Sequence record: NZ_CP092111.1
Reading direction: 5' to 3' (one strand)
Source: a plasmid
DNA length: 64,000 nt
Part shown: positions 4,500 through 55,245 of the stretch, in pieces
How the letters are laid out: each line of letters starts with the position of its first letter
How positions within the stretch are numbered: the stretch's first letter is position 1
Position numbers and translations under genes: made by a program
Notes under the pieces: model-generated
What the model was told of the DNA's origin: nothing
What the model saw: only the letters and a program-made list of their open reading frames with translations
Databases searched by the model: none

Positions 4500-4770
4500 T
4501 TGCATTTACGGCCGACTATAAGAGCGTAATAGAAGATGGATTGAAACCGGCCCCGCCGCGTGCGTCAGCAGCAGGAACAATCTGGCGGGATCCCGGCGAT
4601 CGCTGAAAAAACGCGAGGCGTTCATGGCCGTATACAGAAGCGTGGTAGCTGAAGATGAACGGAAACCGGTGCTGATCGGAGAGGAGCCGGTTTTTTATGG
4701 CCAGGAATGCTCTGCCGCGGTCGTCAGCAGCAGGGTGTTCCCCGCCGTTTCAGAGAAAAGATTTTTAAAA
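4500..4770. repeat. GC-rich composite hairpin repeat locus (B-type subfamily), ~1.2 units
   Basis: ~65 % GC block in AT-rich surroundings. Shares GATCGCTGAAAAAACGCGAGGCGTTCATGG...GAAGCGTGGTAGCTGAAGATGAACGG...GCCGGTTTTTTATGGCCAGGAA with the loci at 11105-11450 and 11935-12300. Confidence 0.7.
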
Positions 4771-7036: not shown

Positions 7037-7492
7037 ATGAAAAAGTTACTTACTGCTGTATGCACTCTTCTTCTAATTTCAATTGGAGCTTATGTAACTG
7101 GAAATTCGCCAATAGATTTACTATCGCATCACCAAAACACAACTGCAGCTGAAGAAAATTCAACCTCATATGATCAAAAGATCTATTTTCCTGCTGATAA
7201 GTACCCTGAAACCGCTAAACACATAAAAACGGCCATTAAAGAAGGCCATTCGAAAATCTGTACAATTGATCGAGATGGTGCCGATGAAAACCGCGAGGAA
7301 TCTTTGAAGGATGTCCCAACCAAAAAAGGGTATGATCGTGATGAATGGCCAATGGCAATGTGTCAGGAGGGCGGAGCCGGTGCCGATATTGAATACATAG
7401 AGCCATCAGATAACCGCGGGGCGGGATCCTGGGTTTCTCATCAGTTAGATGATTTTCCAGACGGAACTAGAGTATTATTTGTTGTGAAATAG
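7037..7492 (+). CDS. secreted NucA/NucB-family DNase (copy 1)
   Basis: Signal peptide, then [101 protein letters not shown]. The B. subtilis NucA/NucB sequence as I recall it has the same pattern. Confidence 0.8.
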
Positions 7493-9355: not shown

Positions 9356-9412
9356 GTAAGGGTGATCCGTCGTCTTTCTTTGAATCAATTACTAATAACA
9401 AAGGAGAATATC

Positions 9413-9988
9413 ATGGAATTCACAATTTCAGAGCGTCCAAATAATATCTTTTACGGCGATATATGTAAGATTAACGGACAAGGTTGCCTGATCTTTGGTT
9501 TTGGCAAGTCAAAGGCTGCCCAAATAGCTTCCTCCGACAATATGATTGCTTATGATATGGCATGTCTTACAAAAGATGATGAGGGAACTTTATATGGTCA
9601 CTTTGAAACCGAAATTCGAGCCAAAGGAATTAGTGATCCAATAAAAGAAAGAATTGAGATTAAACACTTTTTAAGAATGCTTGATCAGGAAGAAACAAAC
9701 AAATTGCTTTGGATCAACCCTCATTTAAAGGAACTTGATAGACTAATTGAAATACCTTATGAGAACTTCATTGAAATTTCTCAATTCAATATTACTTTTA
9801 CAGCCCCAGCTGATTTTCCATTTAGACCCGAAGGATTGCCTGAAATTGAAAGAGATCCTCAAAAGAGAATAGAACACTTTATCAAGCTGTCAAAGGATTC
9901 AAATGTCCGTACTTTTGTGGTACCGTGGAGAGAAACTGTTGAGGAAAAAGCTGTAATGATTAAAGAGGCTTTTGGTTTGCAGCCTTAA
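9413..9988 (+). CDS. hypothetical protein (191 aa)
   Basis: RBS AAAGGAGAA 6 nt upstream of the ATG at 9413. Confidence 0.45.
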   Translation: MEFTISERPNNIFYGDICKINGQGCLIFGFGKSKAAQIASSDNMIAYDMACLTKDDEGTLYGHFETEIRAKGISDPIKERIEIKHFLRMLDQEETNKLLWINPHLKELDRLIEIPYENFIEISQFNITFTAPADFPFRPEGLPEIERDPQKRIEHFIKLSKDSNVRTFVVPWRETVEEKAVMIKEAFGLQP

Positions 9989-10074
9989 AGGATTGGAGGG
10001 ATTCTGTCGCTTGTCCAAAAAAAGTAAGAACGCCCCAGACTCCGACATCTAGGCGTTCCTACCGTTGATTGGAA

Positions 10075-10190
10075 TAAAAGCCGACTCCCTTACAGGAGCT
10101 ATTCTATTGCCGATCGGAGATGTTAGCAGCATCTTCGATCTTTTTGTATTACAGTATACTCTTATTGTATCAACGAACCTTTAAGCATGT
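10075..10190. repeat. Left arm of long inverted repeat bounding the hfq cassette
   Basis: AAAGCCGACTCCCTTACAGGAGCTATTCTATTGCCGATCGGAGATGTTAGCAGCATCTTCGATCTTTTT...TTGTATCAACGAA is the reverse complement (≈90 % identity) of 11575-11745. Confidence 0.7.
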
Positions 10191-10318
10191 CTATATTTAT
10201 TACAGGTGTTTTCTGCTGATTGATGAGAAAATGCTGTACGTTCATAGCCGTCTATGGAAGCGTGGTAGGAGTTGATTTCCTTAGAAATGTGTTACTATCT
10301 TGGGTGAAGGTGAGGATT

Positions 10319-10753
10319 ATGAAACAAGTAAATTTATATATAAGGACTCATCAAGTAAGGAATTTAGAAAATGTAAGAATAAAATACATAGGCTGTCTGT
10401 TACTAGAATATAAGGGGAAACGTAAGTACGTGTTCATTGATAATGTGGGGGAACGTGATCAAAGGGCTTCAATGTTGAGGTTGGTATGTAGTGGACTGAA
10501 AATGTTGAAAGAACCTTGTGAGATACTGGTTTTGACGCTAAATGATATTGAAAAGAAGTGGAAGAAATATAGTGACTTATGGAATGAAGTAAATGAGCGT
10601 GTAGTTGCTGGAGGGCATGATTTAAGTTTTAAGGTCTGTAAAAATTCTGATGAGGATACAGGAGAAGTATTCAAAATATTTAAGAGTAAGTTAGATCGTT
10701 ATAAGAGGTCATATAAAAACAGGCTCAAGCTTCATTTGATGCATAGCAAATAA
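10319..10753 (+). CDS. hypothetical protein (~144 aa)
   Basis: ATG at 10319 (MKQVNLY...) after GGTGAAGGTGAGG. Lies inside the IR-bounded cassette. Confidence 0.4.
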   Translation: MKQVNLYIRTHQVRNLENVRIKYIGCLLLEYKGKRKYVFIDNVGERDQRASMLRLVCSGLKMLKEPCEILVLTLNDIEKKWKKYSDLWNEVNERVVAGGHDLSFKVCKNSDEDTGEVFKIFKSKLDRYKRSYKNRLKLHLMHSK

Positions 10754-10852
10754 ATTCTATGTTAAGATAAAAAAAACAAAAGAGTTAAGTTTTCCATGGA
10801 AGAAGAGATGTTTTTTCATCTTGCCGATTCTATTTTTTTGTGAGGTGATTTT

Positions 10853-11104
10853 ATGGCGACTGCAGAAAGGCAAGCAAAGCAATCAGAAGTAAAAAAGAAA
10901 CCTTCTCAACATAGTGTTCAGAATCAATATTTACAAAGGCATGTGGGTCATACGCTTGTATGCTTGTTAAATTCTAAAACTAAAGTGAAAGGAAAGCTTC
11001 TGGAATATGATACATACACACTGTTACTGGAAACGCCAGAAGGTGAAGAGTTTTTAGTGTTTAAACACCATATTGAGCTTATTAAAAAGATCAAGGCGGA
11101 ATAA
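10853..11104 (+). CDS. hfq: Hfq-like Sm-fold RNA chaperone paralog (83 aa, with ~25-aa N-terminal extension)
   Basis: QNQYLQRHVGHTLVCLLNSKTKVKGKLLEYDTYTLLLETPEGEEFLVFKHHIELIK matches the Hfq Sm1/Sm2 pattern (N..L......V.vfLlNG..l.G.i..fD.ft.lLe.....q.lvyKHaIs). Confidence 0.7.
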   Translation: MATAERQAKQSEVKKKPSQHSVQNQYLQRHVGHTLVCLLNSKTKVKGKLLEYDTYTLLLETPEGEEFLVFKHHIELIKKIKAE

Positions 11105-11450
11105 AAGCCGTTTTTTTATAGTTAGTAAATGGCTCTCCGCGGGCGACAGCTCCAGGAGTCTGCCGGTGGCCACCGGCCATCGATGAAAAAACGCCAGGCG
11201 TTCACGGTCCGCCTTGTGGAAGCGTGGCAGCTGAATATGAAGAACAGCCGGCTTTTTTTGTGGCCAGGAAGGGCTCTCTTCGGGCGACAGTTGCAGGAAT
11301 TCCGCCGGTGCCCCCGGTGATCGATGAGAAAACGCGGGGCGTTTACGGTTGCCTGCGAAGTTCAGCAGCTGAAGGTGAAAGGAAGACGGGAATACCCCGC
11401 TAGAGGCCGCCGCCAGTAAGGAAAGACCCCTGCCTCACATGAGACAGGGG
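11105..11450. repeat. GC-rich composite hairpin repeat locus (B-type), ~1.5 units
   Basis: GATGAAAAAACGCCAGGCGTTCACGG...GCCGGCTTTTTTTGTGGCCAGGAAGG..., ~65 % GC. Confidence 0.7.
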
Positions 11451-11574
11451 TCTTAAATTTCCTCAGCCGGCTGGTTTTTAGGTTCCTCGTTTTGTTCTTC
11501 TATTGGTACACTTTTTGGGGTGATTTTTGGAACATCAAATACGTCTAGCTTCTGGACATGCTGTGATTTTGTTG

Positions 11575-11745
11575 ATACAATCAATGTGTAAATGAATACA
11601 ATGTATGTAAATGAATACAATGTATGTAAATGAGTATAATGTATACAAAAGAGACTATAATAAAGAAAAAGATCGAAGATGCGGCTAACATCTCCGATCG
11701 GCAATAGGAGGCTCCGGTAAGGGAGTTCGGCTTTTTCCAAAGTTT
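11575..11745. repeat. Right arm of long inverted repeat, including a 3x tandem 20-bp repeat (AATGAATACAATGTATGTAA)
   Basis: The reverse complement matches 10075-10190. The internal 20-mer x3 lies at 11583-11645. Confidence 0.7.
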
Positions 11746-11934
11746 AATTTAAAGTGAGAACGTCATGATTGGTAGTCGGGGCGTCTTACTTTTTTTGTTC
11801 GAGAAACTATGGGCAAGCGTCAAAATCCCAACAATCAGGATTCCAAATTGAAACATCAATCCAAGTGCGCTTTCTACTGCCATATTCTCACTTCCCCTCT
11901 TTCTGGAGGTGACTCCTATCCTTTTAGGTGGGGG

Positions 11935-12300
11935 TTATCAATGCTCGCCAGATGAAGGAACTGACGGCGCCCTTGGCGATTGATGAGAAAACACTAGGCG
12001 TTCAGGGCCTGCCTGCAGAAGAGAACAGCTGAATGTGAACGAGAGCCGGTGCCCGTTGAAGGGCAGCCGGCTTTTTTATGGCCAAGAACGCCCTGCCGCG
12101 GTCGCCTGCTGAAGGAATCTGCCGGTGCCCCCGGTGATCGATGAGAAAACGCGGGGGGGTCAAAGTCCGTCTGTAGAAGCGAATAGCTGAATATGAACGA
12201 GAGCCGGTGCCCGCTGGAGGGCAGCCGGCTTTTTTGTGGCCAGGAACGCCTCGCCGTGGTCGCCAGCAGCCAGAAATCTGCTCGGTATATGCGTGTCAAT
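11935..12300. repeat. GC-rich composite hairpin repeat locus (B-type), ~1.7 units
   Basis: GATGAGAAAACACTAGGCGTTCAGGG...GCCGGCTTTTTTATGGCCAAGAACG... repeated twice. Confidence 0.7.
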
Positions 12301-13254: not shown

Positions 13255-14283
13255 TCATTCAAATACTAAAGACTTTGCGGTTTGAACGAGGCTGCTTATC
13301 CCTCTACTATCTGTCAAAGTGAATGGTTTTTCATACTTTTTTGCAAATTCTTTTGCTTTTTCTGCTGTGGGATGATTGATGTTTAATTTCATAGTGATTA
13401 ACATGTCACAACTTTTAACCATACTTTCAAGCCGTTTGGTATTTTCATTGCCGTAAGCATGGATAAGCACTCCTCCGACACTCGTTATTGCTTTTTCAAA
13501 TTCACTCGTTCTGGTACCACCTAACACTAGTACCTTTTTTCCGTTCAATTCATTTGTTATTGTGGTATCTAATTTAGGATTTTTAGTTTTATAATGGGAA
13601 GAAGGAGAAGGTGGAGCATGTTTGATTTCATCCGTATTATGTTTCCATATCACTTTGAACACATCTACATTGTCACTGTAATAAGCTATATCAACAACTG
13701 AACCGATCTCAAGATCCTCCCTTGTTCTTGTATCGTCATTGATAAGAAAAGTATGTGGTGCATCATTATATTTTATGGATTTGATTTTTCCATCGTTATC
13801 TAAGTATTCAGAGGCAACTAGCATAGAATCGCGATTTGATAGAACACAATAATTTAATTGAATTCGGTTTGTTTGCTTGCGTTTTTTGGCCTTTTCTATT
13901 AACTCAAAATAAAATTTTTCGTTTCCTAAATGGACTGCTGAAATTAAATCTCCATCTTCAAATTGTTGTTTTCGTATAATGTTTTCGGGAACATATAAAT
14001 TAATCTCTTCTATAATTCCTCCTTTTAAAAGTCTTTTAAATTCATAACAATTTATCTGTTTTGCTTTTTCGTCTGTCTCTTCTAGTTGAATATGTTCCAC
14101 ATCATTTTTTGAGCATGGTTCTAATTCATGTGAAACCGATACTTTTAAAGCAGCTAAGCTCTTAATAAAATGAAAATAGGTGGATAATTCACCTTCAATT
14201 TCTTCCACGTTGTCCAGTGTCAGTTTTTGAATTATCTTTCCCATCTCACAAACGGCTTCCTGAGCTATATTTTGTCTGTTCAT
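13255..14283 (-). CDS. paralog-family protein (342 aa) with conserved C-terminal ~100-aa domain (GG..T..FEKAI..GG.LIHAYGNE...LESM...CDMLITMKLNINHPT); unknown function
   Basis: Full-length copy. Two further copies are cut by the window edges (1-151 and 63482-64000). RBS on the - strand. Confidence 0.6.
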   Translation of the reverse strand: MNRQNIAQEAVCEMGKIIQKLTLDNVEEIEGELSTYFHFIKSLAALKVSVSHELEPCSKNDVEHIQLEETDEKAKQINCYEFKRLLKGGIIEEINLYVPENIIRKQQFEDGDLISAVHLGNEKFYFELIEKAKKRKQTNRIQLNYCVLSNRDSMLVASEYLDNDGKIKSIKYNDAPHTFLINDDTRTREDLEIGSVVDIAYYSDNVDVFKVIWKHNTDEIKHAPPSPSSHYKTKNPKLDTTITNELNGKKVLVLGGTRTSEFEKAITSVGGVLIHAYGNENTKRLESMVKSCDMLITMKLNINHPTAEKAKEFAKKYEKPFTLTDSRGISSLVQTAKSLVFE

Positions 14284-15699: not shown

Positions 15700-15764
15700 C
15701 TCATTTATCTATTCAACCTTATTTTTACTATCCCTTTAAATCCTAATAAAATAGACATATTTGA

Positions 15765-16565
15765 GTGGTACTCCAAAAGAAAACGCCCCCCGTTTACGGG
15801 GCGATCGGGAAAGCACTGGCAGCGCCGCGCCATGAAATCTCTGCGGCTCATTGAAGCTGCGGGGCAGCCGGATTCCGGAGCCGGCCAGGCGCTGGCTTTT
15901 TTGTGGGCAGGGCAGGCAACGGGCTGCCCTGGCTGCAGCTGAAGGAGATCCGCGGCTGTCGGTTCCGATGTGGCGCCGGCAGGAGAGCATCTAAGGCGAG
16001 AACGCCCCGCGTTTACGAAGCGATCGGGAATGTACCGGCAGCGCCGCGCCGTGAAATCTCCGCGGCTCATTGAAGCTGCGGGGCAACCGGATTCCGGAGC
16101 CGGCCAGGCGCTGGCTTTTTTGTGGGCAGGGCAGGCAACGGGCCGCTCTGGCTGCAGCTGAAGGAGATCCGCGGCTGTCGGTTCCGATGTGGCGCCGGCA
16201 GGAGAGCATCTAAGGCGAGAACGCCCCGCGTTTACGAAGCGATCGGGAATGTACCGGCAGCGCCGCGTCGTGAAATCTCCGCGGCTCATCAAAGCTGCGG
16301 GCAACCGGATTCGGGAACCGCCCAGGCGCCGACAGGAGAGCATCTGAAGGCGAAAACACCCCGCGTTTACGGAGCGATCAGGGCTGCATCAGAGCGCGCC
16401 GCGCCGTAAAATCTCCGCGGCTCATTGAAGCTGCGGGGCAGCCGGATTCCGGAGCCGGCCAGGCACTGGCTTTTTTGTGGGCAGGGCAGGCAACGGGCTG
16501 CCCTGGCTGCGGCTGAAGGAGATCCGCGGCCGTCGGTCCTGATACGGCGCCGGCAGGACGGGATT
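15765..16565. repeat. GC-rich composite hairpin repeat locus (A-type), ~3.7 tandem units of ~215 bp
   Basis: Unit = GAAAACGCCCCGCGTTTACGGGGCGATCGGGAA...CCGGAGCCGGCCAGGCGCTGGCTTTTTTGTGGGCAGGGCAGGCAACGGGC(C/T)GCCCTGGCTGCAGCTGAAGGAGATCCGCGG. Unit starts at ~15781, 16001, 16216, 16349. Confidence 0.8.
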
Positions 16566-16675
16566 AGCCGTCAATTGCATAAAATAAAATATAGACCAGC
16601 AGAAAAAGAGCATATTTAAACCCAATATGCTCTAGTGCTGAACGGAATATAAGTCATCTATAAAGGAGGGATGTA

Positions 16676-36469: not shown

Positions 36470-37200
36470 AGACAGAGCCGGCTGAAAGGAACCGGCTCTT
36501 TTTTGCAGCCAGAGAGACAACGGGCCGCCCTGGCAGCTGAAGGAGATCCGCGGCCGTCGGTTCCGATGCAGCGCCGGCTTTTTTTTGTGTCCTGGCCAAG
36601 CCGGGCCGCCCTGATAGCTGAAGGAGATCCGTGGCCGTCGGTTCCGTGCGGTTCCAGAAGGAGAGCATCTGAAGGAGAAAACGCCCCGCGTTTACGGGGC
36701 GATTGGGAAAGCACCGGCAGCGCCGCGCCATGAAATCTCTGCGTCTCATCGAAGCTGCGGGGCAGCCGGATTCCGGAGCCGATCAGGCGCCGGCTTTTTT
36801 TGTGTCCTGGCCAAGCCGGGCCGCTCTGGTAGCTGAAGGAGATCCGCGGCCGTCGGTTCCGTGCGGTTCCAGAAGGAGAGCATCTGAAGGAGAAAACGCC
36901 CCGCGTTTACGGGGCGATTGGGAAAGCACCGGCAGCGCGCCGCGTCGTGAAATCTCCGCGTCTCATCGAAGCTGCGGGGCAGCCGGATTCCGGAGCCGAC
37001 CAGGCGCCGGCTTTTTTTGTGTCCTGGCCAAGCCGGGCCGCCCTGGCTGCTGAAGGAGCTCCGCTCAGACCTTGCAGCTGCATCAGCACATGACGAGTTG
37101 CTTAGAGCGAAGAGAGAAAGAGCGCGCCGCGCTTACCATGGTGCTTAGGAGCCGCTGTAGCTGCAGGTGATCCAGAGCCGATAGAAAGGAACCGGCTCTT
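36470..37200. repeat. GC-rich composite hairpin repeat locus (A-type), ~3 units
   Basis: Units beginning GAAAACGCCCCGCGTTTACGGGGCGATTGGGAAAGCACCGGCAGCG at ~36680 and ~36895. Confidence 0.8.
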
Positions 37201-37610: not shown

Positions 37611-38114
37611 TTACTCTATTGTAAATAAGACTCTAGTTCCGTCTGGGTAATCAGAAAGCTTATGTGATACCCAGGAACCTGCCCCGCGGTTATCAGAAGG
37701 GGTTATGTATTCGATGTCTGCTCCGCTTCCTCCTTCAGCGCAAAAAGCCATTGGCCATTCATCACGATCATATCCTTTTTTTGTTGGGATATCTTTCAAT
37801 GATTGAGATCGATTATTTTCCGCTCCATCACGGTCGATAGTACACACAGCTGATTTGCCCTTGGAAATTGCATTTTCTATATGTTTGGCAGTCTCAGGGT
37901 ATTTATCAGCCGGAAAATAAATTACCTTGTCGGCTTTCTTATTTGAATTGTTGTTTTTGTCTGAAGAAACATCGATAGCTTTATCATGGGTGAATTCAGA
38001 AATAAGACGGTTTATATCCTTTATGATTGGACGAATAGGTGTATTTGGGACAAAGTTGCCCAAGGCATAAAGGCTAATTATAACGGCTCCTAATAACCCT
38101 AGAAATTTTTTCAT
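37611..38114 (-). CDS. secreted NucA/NucB-family DNase (copy 2)
   Basis: Signal peptide. [101 protein letters not shown]. Confidence 0.8.
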
Positions 38115-39187: not shown

Positions 39188-39323
39188 AGTAAACCTCCAC
39201 ATTGTTTGGGTATTGTTTCTCTAATTTTCCGTCCTAAACCCTAATAATATCCTCTTATTCTGAATGTTGAAAGTTCCAAAGGGAGGATGCGGGCAAGACA
39301 TAAGAGAGAACTTTCCCTTGTGT

Positions 39324-39370
39324 TAAGTATAACATATGCTATAGTAATTGTATAGCATATGTTATACAAA
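39324..39370. promoter_or_regulatory. Palindromic operator/promoter element, copy a (TATAACATATGCTATA-n7-TATAGCATATGTTATA)
   Basis: Perfect 16-bp inverted repeat. Upstream of the - strand operon 39187..37311. Confidence 0.7.
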
Positions 39371-39371
39371 A

Positions 39372-40058
39372 TTAGTGAAGGTTCGACATTGCTTTTGAAA
39401 TTTCCTTATCAGTTGCACGTATAACGGATTCAACAAACTTTTCACAATGTCTTTCGTCCGAAAAAGAACGGCTATCGAAGTTTATATTTAACGTATATGA
39501 AAACTGTTTTTGATTTACCTTGTAAATCAGAGTTGTTACACATTCATAATTACAAATATCTTCGGTCTTATCATATTCCAGCTCCATATCATCGTACTGA
39601 GATTTAATACATTCGTCCGCAGTGTGAATCTGCCGCTCCTTTATATACTCACAAGCAATAGCTTCTATGACATGATGTATAGTCCGTTTGACAGCTGAAA
39701 GATAAAGGTCACAGTGAACGGATGGGTTTTTAACGGTTGTTATAAAAGTTGGGTGAGCATGCGTTTGAGCCGCTATTTCTGAGTGGATGATATCCTTGAA
39801 TTCAGTTTCTGCTATACCTGCAACTTCATCCAATGTCAGGAAATCAAGCGTTTGAGAATGGTCACTATTGTTTAAAAACATATTCTTATTTTTTCTCACC
39901 TCGATGCTGAGTGAAGCTAACGCATAATAGCGCATCTGCTGCTGAACACGATCACCTAGACATGCCATAATTTTTTCTTTGTTTTCTTGAGTGGCAGGCA
40001 AACCATTGCTTTCTAATACTGCCGAAAGGTCTTCTGCTTTAAGTTTTGTTAATAACAT
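39372..40058 (-). CDS. hypothetical protein (228 aa)
   Basis: Second gene of the operon driven from operator copy b. A 10-bp-stem hairpin (40093-40124) lies in the intercistronic gap. Confidence 0.5.
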   Translation of the reverse strand: MLLTKLKAEDLSAVLESNGLPATQENKEKIMACLGDRVQQQMRYYALASLSIEVRKNKNMFLNNSDHSQTLDFLTLDEVAGIAETEFKDIIHSEIAAQTHAHPTFITTVKNPSVHCDLYLSAVKRTIHHVIEAIACEYIKERQIHTADECIKSQYDDMELEYDKTEDICNYECVTTLIYKVNQKQFSYTLNINFDSRSFSDERHCEKFVESVIRATDKEISKAMSNLH

Positions 40059-40132
40059 AAGAACAGCTCCTTATTTTCGATTATGGAGAGCATTCACGCG
40101 GGGAATGAACCACGCGTGAATGCAACTAAGCA

Positions 40133-40333
40133 TTAATCATTAATAATGGTGCCGCAAAATATATGAATTCGATTATTGGTGTGCTGGATCATTCTGACTT
40201 GGACATCCTCTTGTTTAGAGATCGAAAGGTTTTTAGCTTTCTTAAAGACGCTTGCAATGCTAATTGGGCTTTCGATTGTTTCCTCCAATTGATCTTTTAC
40301 AAACAAATTTGCTTCGAAAACTCTTGTTTTCAT
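40133..40333 (-). CDS. hypothetical small protein (66 aa)
   Basis: First gene behind operator copy b. RBS GGAGCGG. Confidence 0.45.
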   Translation of the reverse strand: MKTRVFEANLFVKDQLEETIESPISIASVFKKAKNLSISKQEDVQVRMIQHTNNRIHIFCGTIIND

Positions 40334-40388
40334 CTGAACCGCTCCTTTTCAAATTTATTGTGTGAATGTCACCATCATCTGATGACAA

Positions 40389-40436
40389 TTCAAGTATAAC
40401 ATATGCTTTACTGATATTAAAGCATATGTTAGAAAT
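40389..40436. promoter_or_regulatory. Palindromic operator/promoter element, copy b
   Basis: TATAACATATGCTTTA-ctgatat-TAAAGCATATGTTAGA. Followed on the - strand by the conserved leader TGTCATCAGATGATGGTGACATTCACACAATAAATTT. Confidence 0.7.
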
Positions 40437-40438
40437 GT

Positions 40439-40762
40439 TTATTTATCTTTTTGATATAACGTGTAACCGCATTTGCAAAACTCAGCTATTTGTACAGGTG
40501 ACAACCCGATTGTTTCGCCCTGATCGTTGACTGATGCGACAAAAAATGGGCCGTGGATACAATGTGTCTTACCGTTTTCAGTAATTTTGCAATAGTATTG
40601 GGAATTGTAGAAGCCCTCTTCGTCGAACCAAATGTCAATGTTATTATTGAGTCTCAAACATTCGAGGTTATCGGCTCCTACAAGATTTTGCCGTTCTTCA
40701 AGGGTTTGCGGCAGTTCAACAAATCTGTTGTTCTGATGATCAAACAAAATGATTTTTTCCAT
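40439..40762 (-). CDS. hypothetical protein (~107 aa)
   Basis: ATG at 40762 (MEKIILF...) after AAAGGAAG. Cys-rich C-terminus (CKCGY). Confidence 0.5.
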   Translation of the reverse strand: MEKIILFDHQNNRFVELPQTLEERQNLVGADNLECLRLNNNIDIWFDEEGFYNSQYYCKITENGKTHCIHGPFFVASVNDQGETIGLSPVQIAEFCKCGYTLYQKDK

Positions 40763-40818
40763 AAAACTACTTCCTTTCAAATTTTATTGTGTGAATGTCA
40801 CCATCACCTGATGATAAT

Positions 40819-40866
40819 TTAAGTATAACATATTCTTTACCGATAGTAAAGCATATGTTATAAATT
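40819..40866. promoter_or_regulatory. Palindromic operator/promoter element, copy c
   Basis: TATAACATATTCTTTAC-cgata-GTAAAGCATATGTTATA plus conserved leader. Confidence 0.7.
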
Positions 40867-41530
40867 ATTTTTTGAAATTTCCATCCGGCACTCTCAGCTG
40901 ACAGATAACATGGTTTACGAATTCTTGGAAAGTACCTTCGCTACTTAGATCATGACCTTTTATGTTAGTCATAACGGCGTACCATTTTCCGCTCTTAGGG
41001 AAATAAACATTGTTAATCATATTAAAAGGATCGTCATTCTTTTCAAAGTTTTTTCCTAACATTTGAGAAGGTTTTACAAAGGATACATTACATTCTTCGT
41101 CCACATACTTATTGATCGAGTTAAAGTATCTTTTTGCAATGACTTTAATCAGGTAACAAATAGTTTCTGCCGTTTCAAAAAAAGGGGGTTCCGTTATGGA
41201 ATCGAATTGCATCTCAGAAAGAAATTCTATAGTTGCAGTGAAAGAAAAACTGCCTTTAGTTCTCTCTTCCGCTATTTCAGTGAACTCATTAAGAGTAATC
41301 AACTTCGCTCTCTTCCGATACACATCATCAGAAGTAAAAACTATTTTGTTATCCTCGATGTGATTCAGCAAAGTTTCAAAGGCATCGTGCCGAATCGTTT
41401 CTTGAATTTCTGCTGTGTCCAACTCTTGAAAGATCAATCTTATGTTTTCCTTAGTTGCCGGTATGTTGTTTCTTCGAAGAGCTTCAATAAAATCCGCTTG
41501 TGCCAGTGTGACCTGAAACGTAAAATTCAT
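40865..41530 (-). CDS. hypothetical protein (221 aa)
   Basis: Behind operator copy d and its leader. Confidence 0.5.
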   Translation of the reverse strand: MNFTFQVTLAQADFIEALRRNNIPATKENIRLIFQELDTAEIQETIRHDAFETLLNHIEDNKIVFTSDDVYRKRAKLITLNEFTEIAEERTKGSFSFTATIEFLSEMQFDSITEPPFFETAETICYLIKVIAKRYFNSINKYVDEECNVSFVKPSQMLGKNFEKNDDPFNMINNVYFPKSGKWYAVMTNIKGHDLSSEGTFQEFVNHVICQLRVPDGNFKK

Positions 41531-41586
41531 TTTAATTCTCCTTTACAAAATTTATTGTGTGAATGCCGCCATCACCTGATGACAAT

Positions 41587-41635
41587 TTAAGTATAACATA
41601 TGCTTTATATAAGGTAAAGCATATGTTATACATTT
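41587..41635. promoter_or_regulatory. Palindromic operator/promoter element, copy d
   Basis: TATAACATATGCTTTA-tataag-GTAAAGCATATGTTATA. Confidence 0.7.
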
Positions 41636-41677
41636 TTTTGTTTTGATAAAATCATTCCTTTTCTTTATAATGAAATT

Positions 41678-41762
41678 AATGATTTGTAAGGACTTTACCT
41701 CCTTAACAAATTTATTGTGTGAATAGGTTGCGGTGTGCGGAAACATGCCGCAACTCTTTTCT
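41678..41762 (+). ncRNA. Candidate ~85-nt small RNA (or degenerate leader remnant): consensus sigma-A promoter, leader-complementary core, intrinsic terminator
   Basis: TTGATA (41643-41648) - 17 nt - TATAAT (41666-41671). Transcript would contain AAATTTATTGTGTGAA, which is perfectly complementary to the TTCACACAATAAATTT leader shared by the copy b-f mRNAs, plus a CCUCCUU anti-SD-like stretch. Ends with hairpin GTTGCGG-n14-CCGCAAC + TCTTTTCT (41727-41762). Confidence 0.35.
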
Positions 41763-41802
41763 ATTATATGCTTTACTATAATTAAAGAATATGTTAGAAT
41801 TT
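41757..41802. promoter_or_regulatory. Palindromic operator/promoter element, copy e (degenerate)
   Basis: TTCTATTATATGCTTTAC-n7-TAAAGAATATGTTAGAAT, followed on the + strand by the leader variant ...GATGGTTTTCACACAATAAATC. Confidence 0.55.
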
Positions 41803-41854
41803 AATTACCGTCAGTTGATGGTTTTCACACAATAAATCTTTTGGAGGGGTTAAA

Positions 41855-42100
41855 TTGTTACCACATATCAGGAAAATGAGTCTTGTTCATGATTATCTTT
41901 ATAATAATCGTGAAGTAGCTGAAAGATCGAATGATGGGAAGGATCAAGTGAGAGACCGTTTTATCATTGTTACTACAGCAGAGGATCTCTTTGCTGAAGA
42001 AATACCCGCTGAAGAACATTATCTATATTCAGATTTTAATGAAGTGGTAAGTGAACTGCGAAACACGGTAAATGATATGAAAGCTTTAAGGGAATTTTAG
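41855..42100 (+). CDS. hypothetical protein (81 aa)
   Basis: TTG start after GGAGGGG. Behind operator copy e. Confidence 0.45.
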   Translation: MLPHIRKMSLVHDYLYNNREVAERSNDGKDQVRDRFIIVTTAEDLFAEEIPAEEHYLYSDFNEVVSELRNTVNDMKALREF

Positions 42101-42107
42101 AATATTT

Positions 42108-42155
42108 TTTCTAACATATGCTTTACTATCAGTAAAGCATATGTTATACTTAAAT
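42108..42155. promoter_or_regulatory. Palindromic operator/promoter element, copy f
   Basis: TCTAACATATGCTTTACT-atc-AGTAAAGCATATGTTATA, then leader TGTCATCAGGTGATGGTGGCATTCACACAATAAATTTGAAGGG. Confidence 0.7.
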
Positions 42156-42207
42156 TGTCATCAGGTGATGGTGGCATTCACACAATAAATTTGAAGGGAT
42201 GAAGAAA

Positions 42208-46129: not shown

Positions 46130-47800
46130 CGGCGTCAGCTAGCAATCTGAAGGCGAAAAACGCTTCGCGTTTACGGAGCGATCGGGAGAGTGCTGGATGC
46201 GCCTCTCCTATAAAATCTCCGCGACTCATCACAAGTTCGGGAGCAACCGGATTCCGGAGCCGGCCAGGCGCCGGCTTTTTTGTGGCCAGGTCAGGCAACG
46301 GATCGCCCTGGCTGTTGAAGGAGATACGCGGCCGCCGGTCCCGATATGGCGCCTGCAGGAGAGCATAGAAGGCGAAAACGCTTCGCGTTTACGGGGCGAT
46401 CTGGTCTGCATGGGCAGCACCGCGCCATGAAATCTCTGTGTCACATCGAAGCTGCGGGGCAGCCGGATTCCGGAGCCGATCAGGCGCCGGCTTTTTTTGT
46501 GTCCTGGCCAGACGGGCCGCCCTGGTAGCTGAAGGAGCTCCGCGGCCGTCGGTTCCGATGCGGCGCCAGCAGGAGAGCGTCTGAAGGTGAAAACACACCG
46601 CGTTTACGGGGCGATCTGGTCTGCACCGGCAGCGCCGCGTCGTGAAATCTCCGCGGCTCATCGAAGCTGCGGAGGAAACCGGATTCCGGAGCCGGCCAGG
46701 TGCCGGCTTTTTTTGTGTCCAGAGCAGGAAACGGGCCGCCCTGGTAGCTGAAGGAGCTCCGCGGCCGTCGGTTCCGATGCGGCGCCAGCAGGAGAGCGTC
46801 TGAAGGTGAAAACACACCGCGTTTACGGGGCGATCTGGTCTGCACCGGCAGCGCCGCGTCGTGAAATCTCCGCGGCTCATCGAAGCTGCGGAGGAAACCG
46901 GATTCCGGAGCCGGCCAGGTGCCGGCTTTTTTTGTGTCCAGAGCAGGAAACGGGCCGCCCTGGCTGCTGAAGGAGATCCGCGGCCGTCGGTCCCGATATG
47001 GCGCCAGCAGGAGAGCATAGAAGGCGAAAACGCCCCGCGTTTACGAAGCGATCGGGAGTATACCGGCAGCGCCGCATCGTGAAATCTCCGCGGCTCATCG
47101 AAGCTGCGGGCAACCGAATTTGGGAACCGGCCAGGCGCAGGCTTTTTTGTGGCCAGGTCAGGCAACGGATCGCCCTGGCTGCTGAAGGAGATCCGCGGCC
47201 GCCGGTCCCGATATGGCGCCAGCAGGAGAGCATCTGAAGGCGAAAACGCCCCGCGTTTACGGGGCGATCGGGAGAGCATCTGCAGCGCGCCGCGCCATGA
47301 AATCTCTGCGGCTCATCGAAGCTGCGGGGGCTGCCAGATTCCGGAGCCGACCAGGCGCCGGCTTTTTGTGTTCTGGCCAGGACGGAACGCCCTGGCTGCA
47401 GCTGAAGGATATCCGCATCCGACGGCCCTAATACGGCGCCAGCAGGAGAGCGTCTGAAGGCAAAACGCCCCGCGTTTACGGGGCGATCGGGAGAGCATCT
47501 GCAGCGCGCCGCGCCATGAAATCTCTGCGGCTCATCGAAGCTGCGGGGGCTGCCAGATTCCGGAGCCGACCAGGCGCTGGTTTTTTGTGTCCAGGGCAAG
47601 CTACGGGACGCCCTGGTTGCAGCTGAAGGATATCCGCATCCGACGGCCCTAATACGGCGCCAGCAGGAGAGCGTTGAAGGCAAAACGCCCCGCGTTTACG
47701 GGGCGATCAGGGATGCACCGGCAGCGCCGCCTCATGAAATCTCTGCGGCTCATCGAAGCTGCGGGGCATCCGGATTCCGGAACCGGCCGGTCGCCTGCAA
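46130..47800. repeat. GC-rich composite hairpin repeat locus (A-type), ~7.5 tandem units of ~218 bp; largest array
   Basis: GAAAACGC(C/T)(C/T)CGCGTTTACGG unit starts at ~46155, 46375, 46590, 46810, 47030, 47243, 47463, 47688. Each unit carries three hairpins, including the terminator-like AGCCGGC-CAGGC-GCCGGCT+T6. Confidence 0.85.
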
Positions 47801-48416
47801 GTTTCTAAAAGCAAAGGTAACTGGTGTCGTTAGCAAGCATGCTTTCATCGTCTGGGGTTATGAATAGAAGTTGAGAGGATACTGCACAGTGATAAAAAGT
47901 ATCAAATACCATTTAATTAATTTGAAATCATTTCTCAGGGGTTTACAGGGTAATTGGAGTGTTGAGCCTGGTATTGCGGTGAAGTTCGGAGGAACATCCT
48001 GGGGAGCTGTATTAAGTACCATTTGAGTTTTTGATAAAAAAGCGAATTTATGTTATAATAACAGAACAATTAGTTAAACGAAAAAACAGAGAGACGTTCA
48101 AGTAACTTGGCTGCAGCTTTTACCCTACATTAAACGGTCAGGTTTAATGTTAGCCAGTTCTTGAAAGACCCTCTATTCCTATCTTGCTATTTTTATAATT
48201 CTTTAAGGAAGCAGAAAATTAATAAGAAGAGTCTGCCTAGAACGACAAACCATTCTAAGGTCTTCTTGATTTTCTCGCTTCTTTTTTTTATGTATGAAAA
48301 GAATTTTTTCACTGGCCTCCCCCCTTTACTGCTTGATCAGCTGCGGGATTTAGAGCAGTTTTAATTAGCCTCTCTACCGTCTGCTTTATTTCTCATAAAT
48401 AAACGAGGTGGAATCA

Positions 48417-49266: not shown

Positions 49267-49809
49267 ATGAATCAGTTACAAGATGTTCAGCCAATACGCA
49301 GTTTAGAAAAAATAGAAGACATGAAGTGGGCCTTGAAGAGATTTTGTTCTGAAAGAGACTACATGTATTTTTTGATTGGGATTAACTGTGGTCTTCGTGG
49401 CGGTGATTTAGTTCAGTTGAAACAGTCTCAGTGTAGGAGAAAGAAGTTTCCTGTAAAGGAAGGGAAAACTAAGAAAAAAAGAAATATTAACCTGTCAGCA
49501 ATATACGATGAAGTAGCTGCTTATATTGACAAGTATCCGAATGAGTGGATGTTCCCATCTCAAAAGGGAGGACATATTACAAGGATTCAGGCTTACCGAA
49601 TCTTACGGAAAGCTGCTGACATGGCTGGAATAGAAGGAATGGGCACTCACACCCTTAGAAAAAGCTTTGGTTATTGGCATTACAAGCAATTTAGGGATGT
49701 AGCCAAACTCCAAAGTATCTTTAATCATAATAATCCAGAAACGACATTGAGATATATAGGAATAACAGAAGAAGAAATTGATCAGGATCTTGAAAATTTC
49801 AAATTGTGA
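49267..49809 (+). CDS. short tyrosine recombinase (catalytic domain only, 180 aa; FimB/FimE-like size)
   Basis: Catalytic residues fit: GLRGGDL (Arg), HTLRKSF (His-x-x-Arg), LRYIGIT (Tyr). No N-terminal core-binding domain. Confidence 0.65.
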   Translation: MNQLQDVQPIRSLEKIEDMKWALKRFCSERDYMYFLIGINCGLRGGDLVQLKQSQCRRKKFPVKEGKTKKKRNINLSAIYDEVAAYIDKYPNEWMFPSQKGGHITRIQAYRILRKAADMAGIEGMGTHTLRKSFGYWHYKQFRDVAKLQSIFNHNNPETTLRYIGITEEEIDQDLENFKL

Positions 49810-53104: not shown

Positions 53105-53500
53105 TCTGGCGAGAAGCAGTTTTTTCACTGTTTCCAGCTTTTATGACCAGTGGCCAGGTAATGGGTGTCTTGGCAAAGAACCTGTGACCGTCGGCTCCGA
53201 TGCGGCGCCGGCAGGAAGATCATCAGCGCAGAAGGCGGAAACGCCCTGTGTCTACGGAGCGATCAGGAATGCGTCGGCTACGCCTCTTCCATGAATTCTC
53301 CCCGGACTATCGCAGACTGCGGGTAGCAGGATTCCGGAACCGGCTAAGTGCCGGTTTTTTTGTGGCCAGGGCAGGCAACGGGCCGCCCTGGCTGCAGCCA
53401 AAGGAATTGTGCGGCCATTAGCCCCGATAGGGAGCCGATATGAGAGTGTCCATGCTGAGGCGAAAAAGCTCTGAGTTTAGGGAGCCAATCAGGAGTGCAC
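53105..53500. repeat. GC-rich composite hairpin repeat locus (degenerate A-type), ~1.5 units
   Basis: Contains GGCGGAAACGCCCTGTGTCTACGGAGCGATCAGG...CCGGAACCGGCTAAGTGCCGGTTTTTTTGTGGCCAGGGCAGGCAACGGGCCGCCCTGGC. Confidence 0.7.
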
Positions 53501-53506
53501 CAGCTC

Positions 53507-53908
53507 CTACGACTTCCGTAAATCATTTTTAGAATCACTATTTTTTATTTTCTCTAATTCTTCTATAGTGTATGTAGTAACAGGAGCAGCTTGATCACCA
53601 TCTTTATCCCTCCATCCTTTCCACACTCGTTGATTGTAATTATCTTTTCTTTTTTGTTCCCATTTTTTTTGTTCCTTGCTAGTACCCGTTGTATACTTAC
53701 CCTTTTGTGCGAATCTTTTTCTTGCTTTTTCGCTACTCGTGCTAAGTGTTGGTCTTACATTATTCATCGAATTCAGTTCTTCCTGTCTAAATCTCATCTT
53801 TTTCTCTATAGCTTCAGGAGACTTCGCTCTGGCCCGTTGTTTTTCTCTAATCTCTCTCCTTTTTCTTTGACTCGGCGTTTCATTTTTTATTTGATTTTCT
53901 TCTTTCAT
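53507..53908 (-). CDS. highly basic protein (~133 aa)
   Basis: K/R-rich sequence. ATG at 53908 after GAAGGGG. Function unknown. Confidence 0.4.
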   Translation of the reverse strand: MKEENQIKNETPSQRKRREIREKQRARAKSPEAIEKKMRFRQEELNSMNNVRPTLSTSSEKARKRFAQKGKYTTGTSKEQKKWEQKRKDNYNQRVWKGWRDKDGDQAAPVTTYTIEELEKIKNSDSKNDLRKS

Positions 53909-53994
53909 TTTAAACCAGCCCCTTCTACCAGGATATTTATGCAAAACTTCAATCATTTTTATTATAAACAAATGATATATTTCTCTCACTTATA

Positions 53995-55245
53995 TCTTGC
54001 CGTTGGTCCTGATATGGTGCCAGCAGGAAGAACTTCTGCACAGAAAGCCAAAACACCCCCGCGTTTACGGGGGGTGATCATGAGTGAACTGGCTGTGGCT
54101 TCATCGCAGGCTGCTGAAGGAGCTCCGCGGCCGTTGGCCCTGATATAGCGTCGACAGGAGAGCGTCTGAAGCACAAAACGCCCCGCGTTTACGGAGCGAT
54201 CGGGAGAGCACCGGCAGCGCCTCCGCCGTGAAATCTCCGCGGCTCATCGAAACTGCGAGGCAGCAGGATTCCGGAACCGGCCGGGTGCCGGCTTTTTGTG
54301 TCCAGGGCAGGTAACGGGGCGCCCTGGCTGCTGAAGGAGCTCCGCGGCCGTCGGTTCCGATGCGGCGCCGGCAGGAGAACGTCTGAAGGAGAAAATGCTC
54401 CGCGTTTACGCAGCGATCAGGGCTGCACCGGCAGCGCCGCGTCGTGAAATTTCCGCGCTCATCGAAGTTTCGGGGCAGCAGGATTCCGGCCGGCTAGGTG
54501 CCGGCTTTTTGTGTCCAGGCAGGCAACGGGGCGCCCTGGCTGCTGAAGGAGCTCCGCGGCCGTCGGTTCCGATGCGGCGCCGGCAGGAGAACGTCTGAAG
54601 GAGAAAATGCTCCGCGTTTACGCAGCGATCAGGGCTGCACCGGCAGCGCCTCCGCCGTGAAATCTCCGCGGCTCATCGAAACTGCGAGGCAGCAGGATTC
54701 CGGAACCGGCCGGGTGCCGGCTTTTTGTGTCCAGGGCAGGTAACGGGGCGCCCTGGCTGCTGAAGGAGCTCCGCGGCCGTCGGTTCCGATGCGGCGCCGG
54801 TAGGAGAACGTCTGAAGGAGAAAATGCTCCGCGTTTACGCAGCGATCAGGGCTGCACCGGCAGCGCCGCGTCGTGAAATTTCCGCGCTCATCGAAGTTTC
54901 GGGGAAACAGGCTTCCGGAACCGGCCAGGTGCCGGCTTTTTGTGTCCAGGCAGGCAACGGGGCGCCCTGGCTGCTGCGGCCGTCGGCCCGTCAGGAGAGT
55001 GTCTGATGTCAAAACGCCCCGCGTTTACGGAGCGATCGGGAGAGCACCGGCAGCGCCTCCGCCGTGAAATCTCCGCGGCTCATCGAAGTTTCGGGGAAAC
55101 AGGCTTCCGGAACCGGCCAGGTGCCGGCTTTTTTGTGTCCTGGTCAGGCAACGGGCCGCCCAGGCTGCAGCTGAAGGAGCTCCGCGGCCGATCGCCTCGA
55201 TACAATGCCGACAGTACTCCGGAGCCGGTGGTCGGTTAATTTTCA
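53995..55245. repeat. GC-rich composite hairpin repeat locus (A-type), ~6 units
   Basis: Unit starts at ~54056, 54180, 54398, 54618, 54820, 55018. Immediately upstream of rap. Confidence 0.85.

What the first reader, a model, noticed from the sequence alone, without database searches (positions are those of the whole stretch)
10075..11745. hfq paralog carried on a ~1.7-kb segment bounded by ~110-bp inverted repeats
10075-10190 and 11575-11745 are reverse complements (~90 % identity). They enclose an unknown gene (10319-10753), a plasmid-borne Hfq-like gene (10853-11104) and a GC-repeat block. The right arm holds a 3x tandem 20-bp repeat. Long terminal IRs with no transposase inside suggest a non-autonomous mobile cassette (MITE-like), an invertible segment, or a recombination hotspot. 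Either way the hfq paralog appears to have been acquired as a module.
Basis: seen in the sequence. Interest (0 to 1): 0.65.

Follow-up and report, generated by a model that had tools for sequence, protein, structure and literature searches.

The report
Two facing comI toxin–antitoxin loci
The "inverted repeats" around the plasmid hfq gene are two oppositely oriented copies (one truncated) of a small toxin/antisense-RNA locus of the ComI family, which is common on Bacillus plasmids, so this is an ordinary arrangement rather than a new mobile or invertible cassette.

Summary
The inverted repeat is real. It runs 9991-10193 versus the reverse complement of 11553-11837, with a 42-nt core matching 41/42. 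It is not a pair of transposon ends.

- **What the arms are.** Each arm is the 3' part of a ComI / BsrE-like (Pfam Hol_Tox) type I toxin-antitoxin locus. It holds the toxin mRNA terminator, a predicted 3'-overlapping antisense antitoxin gene with its own terminator, and a conserved outward promoter (TGGACA-17-TGnTACAAT).
- **Right copy.** The right copy is a whole locus. Its toxin ORF (11749-11883, minus strand) scores above the NCBIfam ComI cut-off but is frameshifted to 44 aa.
- **Left copy.** The left copy has lost the toxin start. Related plasmids still carry it intact.
- **Against a mobile cassette.** The arms are not each other's closest relatives (75% identity, against 89-94% to loci elsewhere). 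They occur singly in about 50 other Bacillus plasmids and in chromosomes without hfq. Homologues of hfq occur without the arms. I found no target duplication and no inverted isoform in 9 records.
- **Recombination.** The cargo is at least 95% conserved between plasmids while the outer arm parts are 57-72%. This suggests patchy recombination among comI copies.
- **Cargo.** The cassette encodes a degenerate RNase HI-fold protein and a divergent Hfq.

Verdict: a new member of a known kind, of low-to-moderate interest.

The parts
9991..10023 (+). Remnant of the left comI-type toxin coding region. Only the 3' third is left. The Shine-Dalgarno (SD) sequence, ATG and first ~55 nt are missing, and there is a 14-nt internal deletion. 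It ends in an A7 tract.
   Evidence: Alignments with the right copy and with complete homologues. No ComI-like ORF on this strand.
10017..10157 (-). Predicted left 'orphan' antitoxin RNA of about 141 nt. It has three stem-loops, the last being a terminator (stem 10062-10024 plus U7 at 10023-10017).
   Evidence: Single-sequence fold z = -4.88. The consensus fold of 21 loci gives the same three hairpins, with G-U pairs that work only on this strand. Transcription is inferred, not shown.
10112..10145 (+). Toxin-sense intrinsic terminator (13-bp hairpin plus T5). This is the core of the left arm and the first terminator downstream of ORF208.
   Evidence: Terminator scan. The core is near-invariant across the family.
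10164..10193 (-). Predicted promoter of the left antitoxin: TAGACA, 18 nt, TG-n-TACAAT.
   Evidence: Promoter scan, 10 of 12 matches with TG. The same motif is present in 21 of 24 distinct family loci.
10319..10753 (+). ORF144, a protein with a degenerate RNase HI-like fold.
   Evidence: AlphaFold2 model, pLDDT 86, pTM 0.79. The top 50 Foldseek PDB hits are all RNase HI/H1 enzymes or engineered or ancestral variants, best E = 5.8e-9. Catalytic E48 and D70 are not kept in a weak alignment.
10853..11104 (+). Divergent plasmid Hfq paralogue (83 aa) with a Lys-rich N-terminal extension.
   Evidence: Pfam Hfq 28.3 bits against a cut-off of 27. Matches PDB Hfq chains at E about 1e-3. Sm1/Sm2 residues are kept, with 29% identity to B. 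subtilis Hfq. Only 3 clusters in 5.8 billion proteins.
11128..11400 (.). Two units of a GC-rich dispersed repeat specific to this plasmid family.
11423..11454 (.). 15-bp perfect-loop hairpin between the GC repeats and the right arm. Role unknown.
   Evidence: I6.
11553..11581 (+). Predicted promoter of the right antitoxin: TGGACA, 17 nt, TG-n-TACAAT.
11587..11644 (+). 19-nt tandem repeat, 3.1 copies, in the non-complementary 5' part of the predicted right antitoxin. Relatives have 2 copies.
11588..11796 (+). Predicted right antitoxin RNA of about 209 nt. Its last ~130 nt are complementary to the 3' end of the toxin mRNA. The terminator at 11754-11796 is weakened by a 1-nt deletion.
   Evidence: (z = -2.59). 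Transcription is inferred.
11666..11707 (-). Terminator of the right toxin mRNA. This is the core of the right arm.
11749..11883 (-). comI-type toxin ORF of 44 aa. An A7 tract (A8 in most homologues) shifts the frame, so the usual ...NKKK stop is replaced by a 13-aa extension.
   Evidence: NCBIfam ComI NF052249, 65.8 bits against a cut-off of 55. Pfam Hol_Tox, 31.1 bits against 23.3. Family alignment.
11887..11914 (-). 5' hairpin that sequesters the toxin SD sequence. In this copy there is one G-to-A change in the SD arm.
   Evidence: Family alignment.
11945..12300 (.). Two more GC-rich repeat units on the outer side of the right comI locus, each ending in a strong hairpin plus T-run.

Best explanation
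The two "arms" are two members of the ComI / BsrE-like (Pfam Hol_Tox) family of type I toxin-antitoxin loci. They sit in opposite orientation on either side of an ORF144-hfq gene pair.

**Layout of a complete locus.**
- A small hydrophobic toxin gene whose Shine-Dalgarno (SD) sequence is buried in a 5' hairpin.
- A structured 3' UTR that ends in a strong terminator. This terminator is the 42-nt core of the repeat.
- On the other strand, an antisense RNA gene. Its promoter (TGGACA-17-TGnTACAAT) lies just beyond the toxin terminator. Its transcript runs back across about 130 nt of the toxin 3' end and stops at a terminator whose U-run is the complement of the toxin's final Lys codons.

**Likely mechanism (by analogy, not shown).** By analogy with bsrG/SR4 and bsrE/SR5, the antisense RNA would pair with the toxin mRNA 3' end, trigger its decay and keep the SD closed.

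**State of the two copies in this window.**
- The right locus is complete, but its toxin carries a frameshift and a weakened SD.
- The left locus has lost the toxin 5' half. It keeps the terminator, which now also ends the upstream ORF208 transcript, and an apparently intact antitoxin gene.

**How the repeat arose.** The inverted repeat is a by-product of two homologous loci facing each other. The block is most likely reshuffled by ordinary homologous recombination or gene conversion among the many comI copies in these bacteria, not by transposition or programmed inversion.

**Shown:** family membership of the toxin, homology and extent of the arms, conservation of the promoter and terminator motifs, and the distribution.
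**Inferred:** that the antisense RNAs are made and act as antitoxins.
For: - **Toxin identity.** NCBIfam ComI scores 65.8 bits against a cut-off of 55, and Pfam Hol_Tox scores 31.1 against 23.3.
- **Rfam.** The only low-E-value (<1) Rfam hits on both arms, all below gathering score, are to the 3' end of the BsrG toxin mRNA model, in mirror orientation.
- **Family alignments.** Alignments of 21-23 loci show the SD hairpin, a 31-32-aa ORF, an A8 tract, a 3' UTR and a terminator.
- **Left copy was once whole.** It is complete in B. glycinifermentans (L002) and in a B. licheniformis contig (L044).
- **Mirror promoters.** They lie at 10193-10164 (minus strand) and 11553-11581 (plus strand). The motif is conserved in 21 of 24 loci, including pBS32 comI.
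- **Antisense-strand fold.** The consensus has three hairpins and a U-run, and its G-U pairs are compatible only with that strand. Single-sequence z-scores are -4.9 and -2.6.
- **Distribution.** The arm occurs in 56 Bacillus plasmids, the cargo in 5. Genomic copies lie beside comI ORFs and none is beside hfq.
- **Arm relatedness.** The arms are 75% identical to each other but 89-94% to loci elsewhere.
- **Literature.** ComI is placed in the BsrE-like type I toxin family (bioRxiv 10.1101/2024.02.02.578676). B. subtilis type I pairs overlap at their 3' ends by about 120 nt (PMC6562991; PMC3834814).
Against: - No transcript data exist for either antisense RNA. No antitoxin for comI is described in the literature I could search.
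- There are no compensatory (double-sided) base-pair changes, because the loci are too similar.
- The right toxin is frameshifted, its SD has a G-to-A change and its antitoxin terminator has a 1-nt deletion. The right locus may therefore be decaying, or these may be homopolymer errors in the assembly.
- No toxin promoter was identified.
Confidence: 0.85

Rival explanations
1. The segment is a non-autonomous mobile cassette (MITE-like or composite element). Its terminal inverted repeats would be recognised by a transposase encoded elsewhere.
For: - Inverted repeats of about 200 nt bound a 1.4-kb cargo that has no transposase.
- The block is found with different left flanks (L002, L044) and a different right flank (L034).
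Against: - The arms are fully explained as toxin-antitoxin loci.
- They are not each other's nearest relatives, at 75% identity.
- The left "end" in this window is a truncation of a longer locus that is intact in L002 and L044.
- No flanking direct repeat was found.
- The arms occur singly in about 50 plasmids and in chromosomes.
- The arrangement is limited to one related plasmid group.
- ORF144's fold matches RNase HI, not transposases, and it lacks the catalytic residues.
Confidence: 0.03
2. The segment is an invertible switch. Recombination between the arms, either site-specific through the tyrosine recombinase at 49267 or RecA-dependent, would flip ORF144-hfq.
For: - The 41/42 identical core and about 180 nt of homology in inverted orientation could support occasional homologous inversion.
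- A Phage_integrase-domain ORF exists at 49267-49809.
Against: - All 9 records (H1-H4, L034-L037, L044) have the cargo in the same orientation relative to both flanks.
- The recombinase is 37 kb away.
- ORF144-hfq sits between outward-facing promoters and inward-facing terminators in either orientation, so no promoter-switch logic is evident.
Confidence: 0.04
3. The comI loci act as recombination junctions. Their near-invariant terminator core and multi-copy presence would let homologous recombination or gene conversion swap neighbouring modules. This would explain why hfq travels as a block bounded by them. It is compatible with the best explanation.
For: - Window versus L002: the interior (10100-11700) is 95-100% identical in nearly all 40-nt bins; two bins drop to 47-67% where indels lie (a 12-nt gap, and the tandem-repeat copy-number difference). 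The outer arm parts are 67-72%.
- Window versus B. haynesii contigs: the left flank is 100% identical, the outer left arm 62-70%, and the ORF144-hfq part of the interior mostly 83-100%, with most of the GC-repeat block (about 11260-11400) deleted.
- Synteny breaks immediately outside the arms.
- A [GC repeat - comI - GC repeat] block is tandemly duplicated in L002.
Against: - This rests on only a handful of related plasmids.
- The divergence of the outer arm could instead reflect fast evolution of the toxin-antitoxin recognition region.
- No direct recombination intermediates were seen.
Confidence: 0.35
4. The block is a functional RNA module. The plasmid Hfq, and perhaps the RNase H-like protein, would act on the flanking comI sense/antisense RNAs, for example by stabilising the antitoxins.
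For: - ORF144-hfq is flanked by comI loci on both sides in all 9 records of this plasmid group.
- In B. subtilis, Hfq stabilises the related antitoxin SR5 about seven-fold (PMC6562991).
Against: - SR4, SR5 and SR6 do not need Hfq for function.
- About 50 plasmids carry comI loci without hfq.
- hfq homologues in L012 and L033 have no comI neighbours.
Confidence: 0.1

Closest known systems
ComI of B. subtilis NCIB 3610 plasmid pBS32 (competence inhibitor; BsrE-like small toxin, IPR031616 / Pfam PF16935)
   Same: - The right-arm ORF scores above the NCBIfam ComI equivalog cut-off.
- The pBS32 comI locus aligns from its SD to its terminator with window 11666-11895 at 75% identity.
- It shares the downstream TGGACA-17-TGnTACAAT motif.
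   Different: - The window ORF is 44 aa because of an A7/A8 frameshift.
- The two have different plasmid backbones.
- Here there are two copies, facing each other, and one is truncated.
- No antitoxin RNA has been reported for comI.
bsrG/SR4 and bsrE/SR5 type I toxin-antitoxin systems of B. subtilis prophages
   Same: - A small hydrophobic toxin.
- A toxin mRNA with a sequestered SD.
- A predicted antisense RNA overlapping about 130 nt of the toxin 3' end. It has a non-complementary 5' part, a hairpin complementary to the toxin terminator, a middle hairpin and a terminator hairpin. This matches the SR4 layout (PMC3834814).
   Different: - Sequence similarity to the Rfam BsrG model is only sub-threshold, at 21 and 16 bits against a gathering score of 55.
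- The loci here are on plasmids.
- The antitoxin is predicted, not shown.
MITEs and composite transposons
   Same: Inverted repeats bound a short cargo without a transposase.
   Different: - The arms are functional gene loci.
- They are not near-identical to each other.
- There are no target-site duplications.
- There is no multi-copy spread of the whole unit.
Plasmid-borne Hfq paralogues (e.g. Hfq3 on B. anthracis pXO1; recalled from memory, with PMC7843513 listed as the lead)
   Same: An extra, divergent Hfq gene carried on a Bacillus plasmid.
   Different: - Only 29% identical to B. subtilis Hfq.
- It has a Lys-rich N-terminal extension.
- The clade is very rare, with 3 clusters.
- It is paired with an RNase HI-fold gene.

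Membership tests
ComI / BsrE-like type I toxin (Pfam PF16935 Hol_Tox; NCBIfam NF052249) | Protein profile match above the curated cut-off. | tested here: met
   ComI scores 65.8 bits against 55. Hol_Tox scores 31.1 against 23.3. Both are for ORF 11749-11883, minus strand.
ComI / BsrE-like type I toxin (Pfam PF16935 Hol_Tox; NCBIfam NF052249) | A peptide of about 30 aa with one hydrophobic helix and a C-terminal Lys cluster. | tested here: inconclusive
   Residues 1-31 match the family. An A7 tract instead of A8 shifts the frame, giving 44 aa with a 13-aa tail. This could be a real variant or a homopolymer assembly error.
Type I toxin-antitoxin system of the bsrG/SR4 kind | An antisense RNA gene convergent with the toxin gene and overlapping its 3' end. 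| tested here: inconclusive
   A conserved promoter is present in 21 of 24 loci, and a terminator and structured fold lie on the antisense strand. There are no expression data.
Type I toxin-antitoxin system of the bsrG/SR4 kind | [quoted passage not shown] | tested here: met
   CTCACCTCC...GGGGAGGTGAG is conserved across loci. The window copy has one mismatch.
Type I toxin-antitoxin system of the bsrG/SR4 kind | The toxin is toxic and the antisense RNA neutralises it. | not testable with these tools
   Needs genetics.
MITE / non-autonomous transposon | The terminal inverted repeats are each other's closest relatives and define the element ends. | tested here: not met
   The arms are 75% identical to each other and 89-94% to loci elsewhere. 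The left "end" is a truncation of a longer locus.
MITE / non-autonomous transposon | Target-site duplication flanking the element. | tested here: not met
   No direct repeat was reported at the outer arm boundaries.
MITE / non-autonomous transposon | Multiple insertions of the whole unit, or empty sites. | tested here: not met
   The unit is found only in one related plasmid group. Elsewhere the arms are single.
Site-specific invertible segment | Both orientations are observed, with a recombinase adjacent. | tested here: not met
All 9 records share one orientation.
Hfq (Sm-like RNA chaperone) | Pfam Hfq match and conserved Sm1/Sm2 residues. | tested here: met
   PF17209 scores 28.3 against 27, which is marginal. 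The Q, G, D and KH positions align with B. subtilis Hfq.
RNase HI (for ORF144) | RNase H fold. | tested here: met
   Foldseek best E = 5.8e-9, TM 0.51-0.60, and the top 50 hits are all RNase HI/H1 enzymes or engineered or ancestral variants.
RNase HI (for ORF144) | The DEDD catalytic residues. | tested here: not met
   In a weak profile alignment, E48 and D70 of E. coli RNase HI align with S/A and L. No Asp is invariant in strand 1.

The most novel reading that the evidence does not exclude
The two comI antisense RNAs and the enclosed RNase-H-fold/Hfq gene pair form one functional RNA module. The dedicated plasmid Hfq would stabilise or present the antitoxin RNAs. These include the toxin-less left "orphan" antitoxin, whose recognition loop matches chromosomal-type comI loci (94% to L030). 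The plasmid could then neutralise comI-type toxins of the host or of rival plasmids, an anti-addiction function. The 3'-overlapping antisense RNA would also be the long-missing regulator of ComI on pBS32.
Probability: 0.1. Interest if true: 0.6.

Novelty: new member of a known kind. Interest (0 to 1): 0.3.

Why it matters
The main value is negative. An apparent mobile or invertible cassette turns out to be two facing toxin-antitoxin loci, so it should not be counted as a new mobile element.

Three smaller points may interest Bacillus and RNA researchers.
1. The comparison predicts a conserved 3'-overlapping antisense RNA, with a defined promoter and terminator, for the whole ComI family. This includes comI of B. 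subtilis 3610, for which no antitoxin has been described.
2. Toxin-less "orphan antitoxin" remnants recur, both here and in three plasmids of about 145 kb.
3. A rare divergent Hfq is always paired with a degenerate RNase HI-fold protein in this plasmid group.

Tried and rejected
- **Rfam.** The whole window gave nothing at gathering thresholds. Only sub-threshold BsrG hits appeared on the arms.
- **Transposon reading.** I looked for flanking direct repeats, multi-copy spread and nearest-relative arms. All were negative.
- **Inversion reading.** I compared orientation in 9 records and found none inverted.
- **Covariation.** The consensus fold has no double-sided compensatory changes, so it cannot prove the structure. 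Only one-sided G-U changes favour the antisense strand.
- **Toxin promoter.** No sigma-A-like site was found upstream of the right toxin.
- **Other libraries.** PHROGs and PADLOC searches for ORF144, Hfq and ORF208 gave only weak, uninformative hits.
- **Exact-sequence look-up.** The window's Hfq is not on record in the assembly collection.
- **Literature.** I found no paper on a comI antisense RNA.
- **Script bug.** One script loaded alignment rows in place of loci. I corrected and repeated it.
- **Not run.** I did not use the metagenome scan to look for an inverted junction.
Full report
**Origin.** The window is essentially identical to a 67-kb plasmid of Bacillus velezensis SRCM124633 (NZ_CP116015.1). 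It is very close to two B. licheniformis plasmids. A B. glycinifermentans plasmid shares the region with rearrangements.

**Observation.**
- The inverted repeat is real. The repeat finder gives a 42-nt core (10104-10145 / 11666-11707, 98%) flanked by weaker segments.
- Local and global alignments extend the homology to 9991-10193 versus the reverse complement of 11553-11837.
There are 59 gap columns because the right arm is longer.
- The core, allowing up to 3 mismatches, occurs twice in the window and never in 100 shuffles.
- The tandem repeat in the right arm has a period of 19 nt and 3.1 copies.
- ORF 10319-10753, the Hfq-like ORF 10853-11104 and the GC-rich block are all as described.

**What the arms are.**
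- Next to the right arm, on the minus strand, is a 44-aa ORF (11749-11883). It scores 65.8 bits on the NCBIfam ComI equivalog (cut-off 55) and 31.1 bits on Pfam Hol_Tox (cut-off 23.3).
- The only low-E-value (<1) Rfam signal on the arms is a pair of mirror-image, sub-threshold hits to the 3' end of the BsrG toxin-mRNA model.
- ComI of pBS32 is placed in the BsrE-like family of type I toxins (bioRxiv 10.1101/2024.02.02.578676).
- A search with the right arm finds 56 Bacillus plasmid records, usually annotated "putative holin-like toxin". These include pBS32.
- The neighbours there are varied: thermonuclease, SprT-like, Rap-Phr and GIY-YIG genes.
- A pattern scan of one genome per species finds the core in B. 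changyiensis, Bacillus sp. WMMC1349 (chromosome and plasmid-like contigs), B. inaquosorum and B. glycinifermentans. In each case it lies beside a ComI-like ORF and never beside hfq or ORF144.

**Anatomy of the family**. In toxin sense, each locus has:
- a hairpin CTCACCTCC...GGGGAGGTGAG that buries the Shine-Dalgarno (SD) sequence;
- a 31-32-aa ORF ending NKKK or TKKK;
- an A8 tract;
- a stem GTAAGAACG...CGTTCTTAC;
- a short hairpin (CTCCC...GGGAG);
- a 12-13-bp terminator followed by a T-run (the inverted-repeat core).

**Antisense strand.**
- The A8 tract becomes the U-run of a terminator.
- The consensus fold of 21 distinct loci has three hairpins. Several G-U pairs are possible only on that strand.
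- The left antisense RNA folds with z = -4.9 and the right with z = -2.6.
- A promoter scan finds mirror-image sites. On the plus strand it is 11553-11581 (TGGACA-17-TACAAT with TG). On the minus strand it is 10193-10164 (TAGACA-18-TACAAT with TG).
- This motif lies 23-141 nt from the terminator complement in 21 of 24 distinct loci, including pBS32 comI.
- The layout matches SR4/bsrG. There a roughly 180-nt antitoxin overlaps the toxin 3' end. Its 5' part is non-complementary, one hairpin is complementary to the toxin terminator, and its terminator loop makes first contact (PMC3834814; PMC6562991).
- The inner limit of each arm is therefore the antitoxin promoter. The outer limit is the toxin coding region.

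**State of the two copies.**
- The right locus is complete. However, it has A7 instead of A8, which frameshifts the ORF to 44 aa. It also has a G-to-A change in the SD arm and a 1-nt deletion in the antitoxin terminator stem.
- No CDS is listed there in the identical plasmid record.
- The left copy begins at 9991 inside the toxin coding region. It lacks the SD, the ATG and about 55 nt, and it has a 14-nt deletion.
- In B. glycinifermentans (L002) and in a B. licheniformis contig (L044), the left copy is a complete locus with a called Hol_Tox ORF. The ancestral state is therefore two whole comI loci facing each other.
- Toxin-less remnants also occur in three plasmids of about 145 kb (L011).

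**Tests of the mobile or invertible reading.**
- Over the region from the A tract to the terminator, the two arms are 75% identical. The left arm is 94% identical to a chromosomal locus of Bacillus sp. WMMC1349, and the right arm is 89% identical to loci on other plasmids.
- No direct repeat flanks the unit.
- The cargo occurs in only five plasmid records plus B. haynesii and B. licheniformis contigs.
- hfq homologues occur without arms. In L012, hfq is followed directly by the MerR-like gene. L033 is a second case.
- ORF144 homologues occur without hfq.
- All nine records with the arrangement have the same orientation.
- The ORF at 49267 is a 180-aa Phage_integrase-domain protein 37 kb away.

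**Recombination signal.**
- Sliding identity between the window and L002 is 95-100% in nearly all 40-nt bins across 10100-11700, with two indel-containing bins at 47-67%. It drops to 67-72% in the outer part of both arms.
- Against B. haynesii contigs, the left flank is 100% identical, the outer left arm 62-70%, and the ORF144-hfq part of the interior mostly 83-100%; most of the GC-repeat block is deleted there.
- Flanks differ beyond the arms: the left flank in L002 and L044, and the right flank in L034.
- L002 carries a tandem duplication of a [GC repeat - comI - GC repeat] block.
- This pattern fits homologous recombination or gene conversion among dispersed comI copies. Fast divergence of the recognition region is an alternative.

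**Cargo.**
- ORF144 gives a confident AlphaFold2 model (pLDDT 86). Its best PDB matches are all RNase HI (E = 5.8e-9), but E48 and D70 are not kept.
- The Hfq paralogue keeps the Sm1/Sm2 residues and is 29% identical to B. subtilis Hfq. It has a Lys-rich N-terminal extension and belongs to a very small clade.
- B. subtilis type I antitoxins do not require Hfq, although Hfq stabilises SR5. A functional link is possible but unsupported.

**Verdict.** The finding is an ordinary consequence of two homologous type I toxin-antitoxin loci in opposite orientation, one of them truncated. It is a new member of a known kind. The predicted comI-family antisense RNA and the RNase-H-fold/Hfq pair are modest leads.

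Noticed in passing
window ~4690-4740, 11128-11400, 11945-12300, 15756-16571, 36500-37064, 46157-47899, 53238-55229, 60893-61616: A GC-rich (55-60%) dispersed repeat family with units of about 141-219 nt, often in tandem arrays. Each unit ends in a strong hairpin plus a T-run. In PLSDB it is found only in the four plasmids that carry the hfq block. It is unannotated and matches no Rfam family. A degenerate, AT-enriched fragment also lies at 10218-10268, just inside the left arm. Its nature is unknown.
   Followed up: partly
window 10319-10753: The "unknown gene" ORF144 has an RNase HI-like fold (pLDDT 86; Foldseek E = 5.8e-9). It appears to lack the DEDD catalytic residues. It is always upstream of the plasmid hfq in this plasmid group.
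   Followed up: yes
window 11791-11797; L002, L015: The poly-A tract at the end of the comI ORF is A8 in most loci and A7 in 4 of 21. In three of the four, A7 shifts the frame to 44-45 aa; the fourth (BglyL) has a further 1-nt loss and also reads past the usual stop (length not determined). The same tract is the U-run of the predicted antitoxin terminator. This could be slippage-driven variation or a homopolymer sequencing error.
   Followed up: partly
window 11587-11644; L009 (pBS32), downstream of the comI terminator: The spacer between the antitoxin promoter and the toxin terminator varies from 23 to 141 nt and tends to hold tandem repeats. These are 19-nt units here (3 copies against 2 in relatives) and unrelated 13-nt units (about 3.5 copies) in pBS32.
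   Followed up: partly
L011 (NZ_CP032858.1) and two similar ~145-kb B. subtilis plasmids: These carry further toxin-less remnants of the comI 3' region, as possible orphan antitoxin genes. Their toxin terminator is degenerate.
   Followed up: partly
window 39323-42195: Five or more copies of a ~50-nt palindromic motif (TATAACATATGCTTTAC...GTAAAGCATATGTTATA), with inverted pairs of 88-103 nt. They could be operator or iteron-like sites.
   Followed up: no
window 7181-7480 / 37623-37922, and 13267-13767 / 63497-64000: A 300-nt inverted repeat at 75% identity, and a ~500-nt direct repeat at 77-82% that overlaps the DUF2325 gene. These are probably paralogous genes on the plasmid.
   Followed up: no
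window 49267-49809: A very short (180 aa) Phage_integrase-family protein, essentially a catalytic domain only.
   Followed up: partly
window 9362-9988: ORF208 has no family assignment. It has one weak PADLOC hit to Aga_SIR2 (E = 2e-4). Its first downstream terminator is the left-arm core.
   Followed up: no
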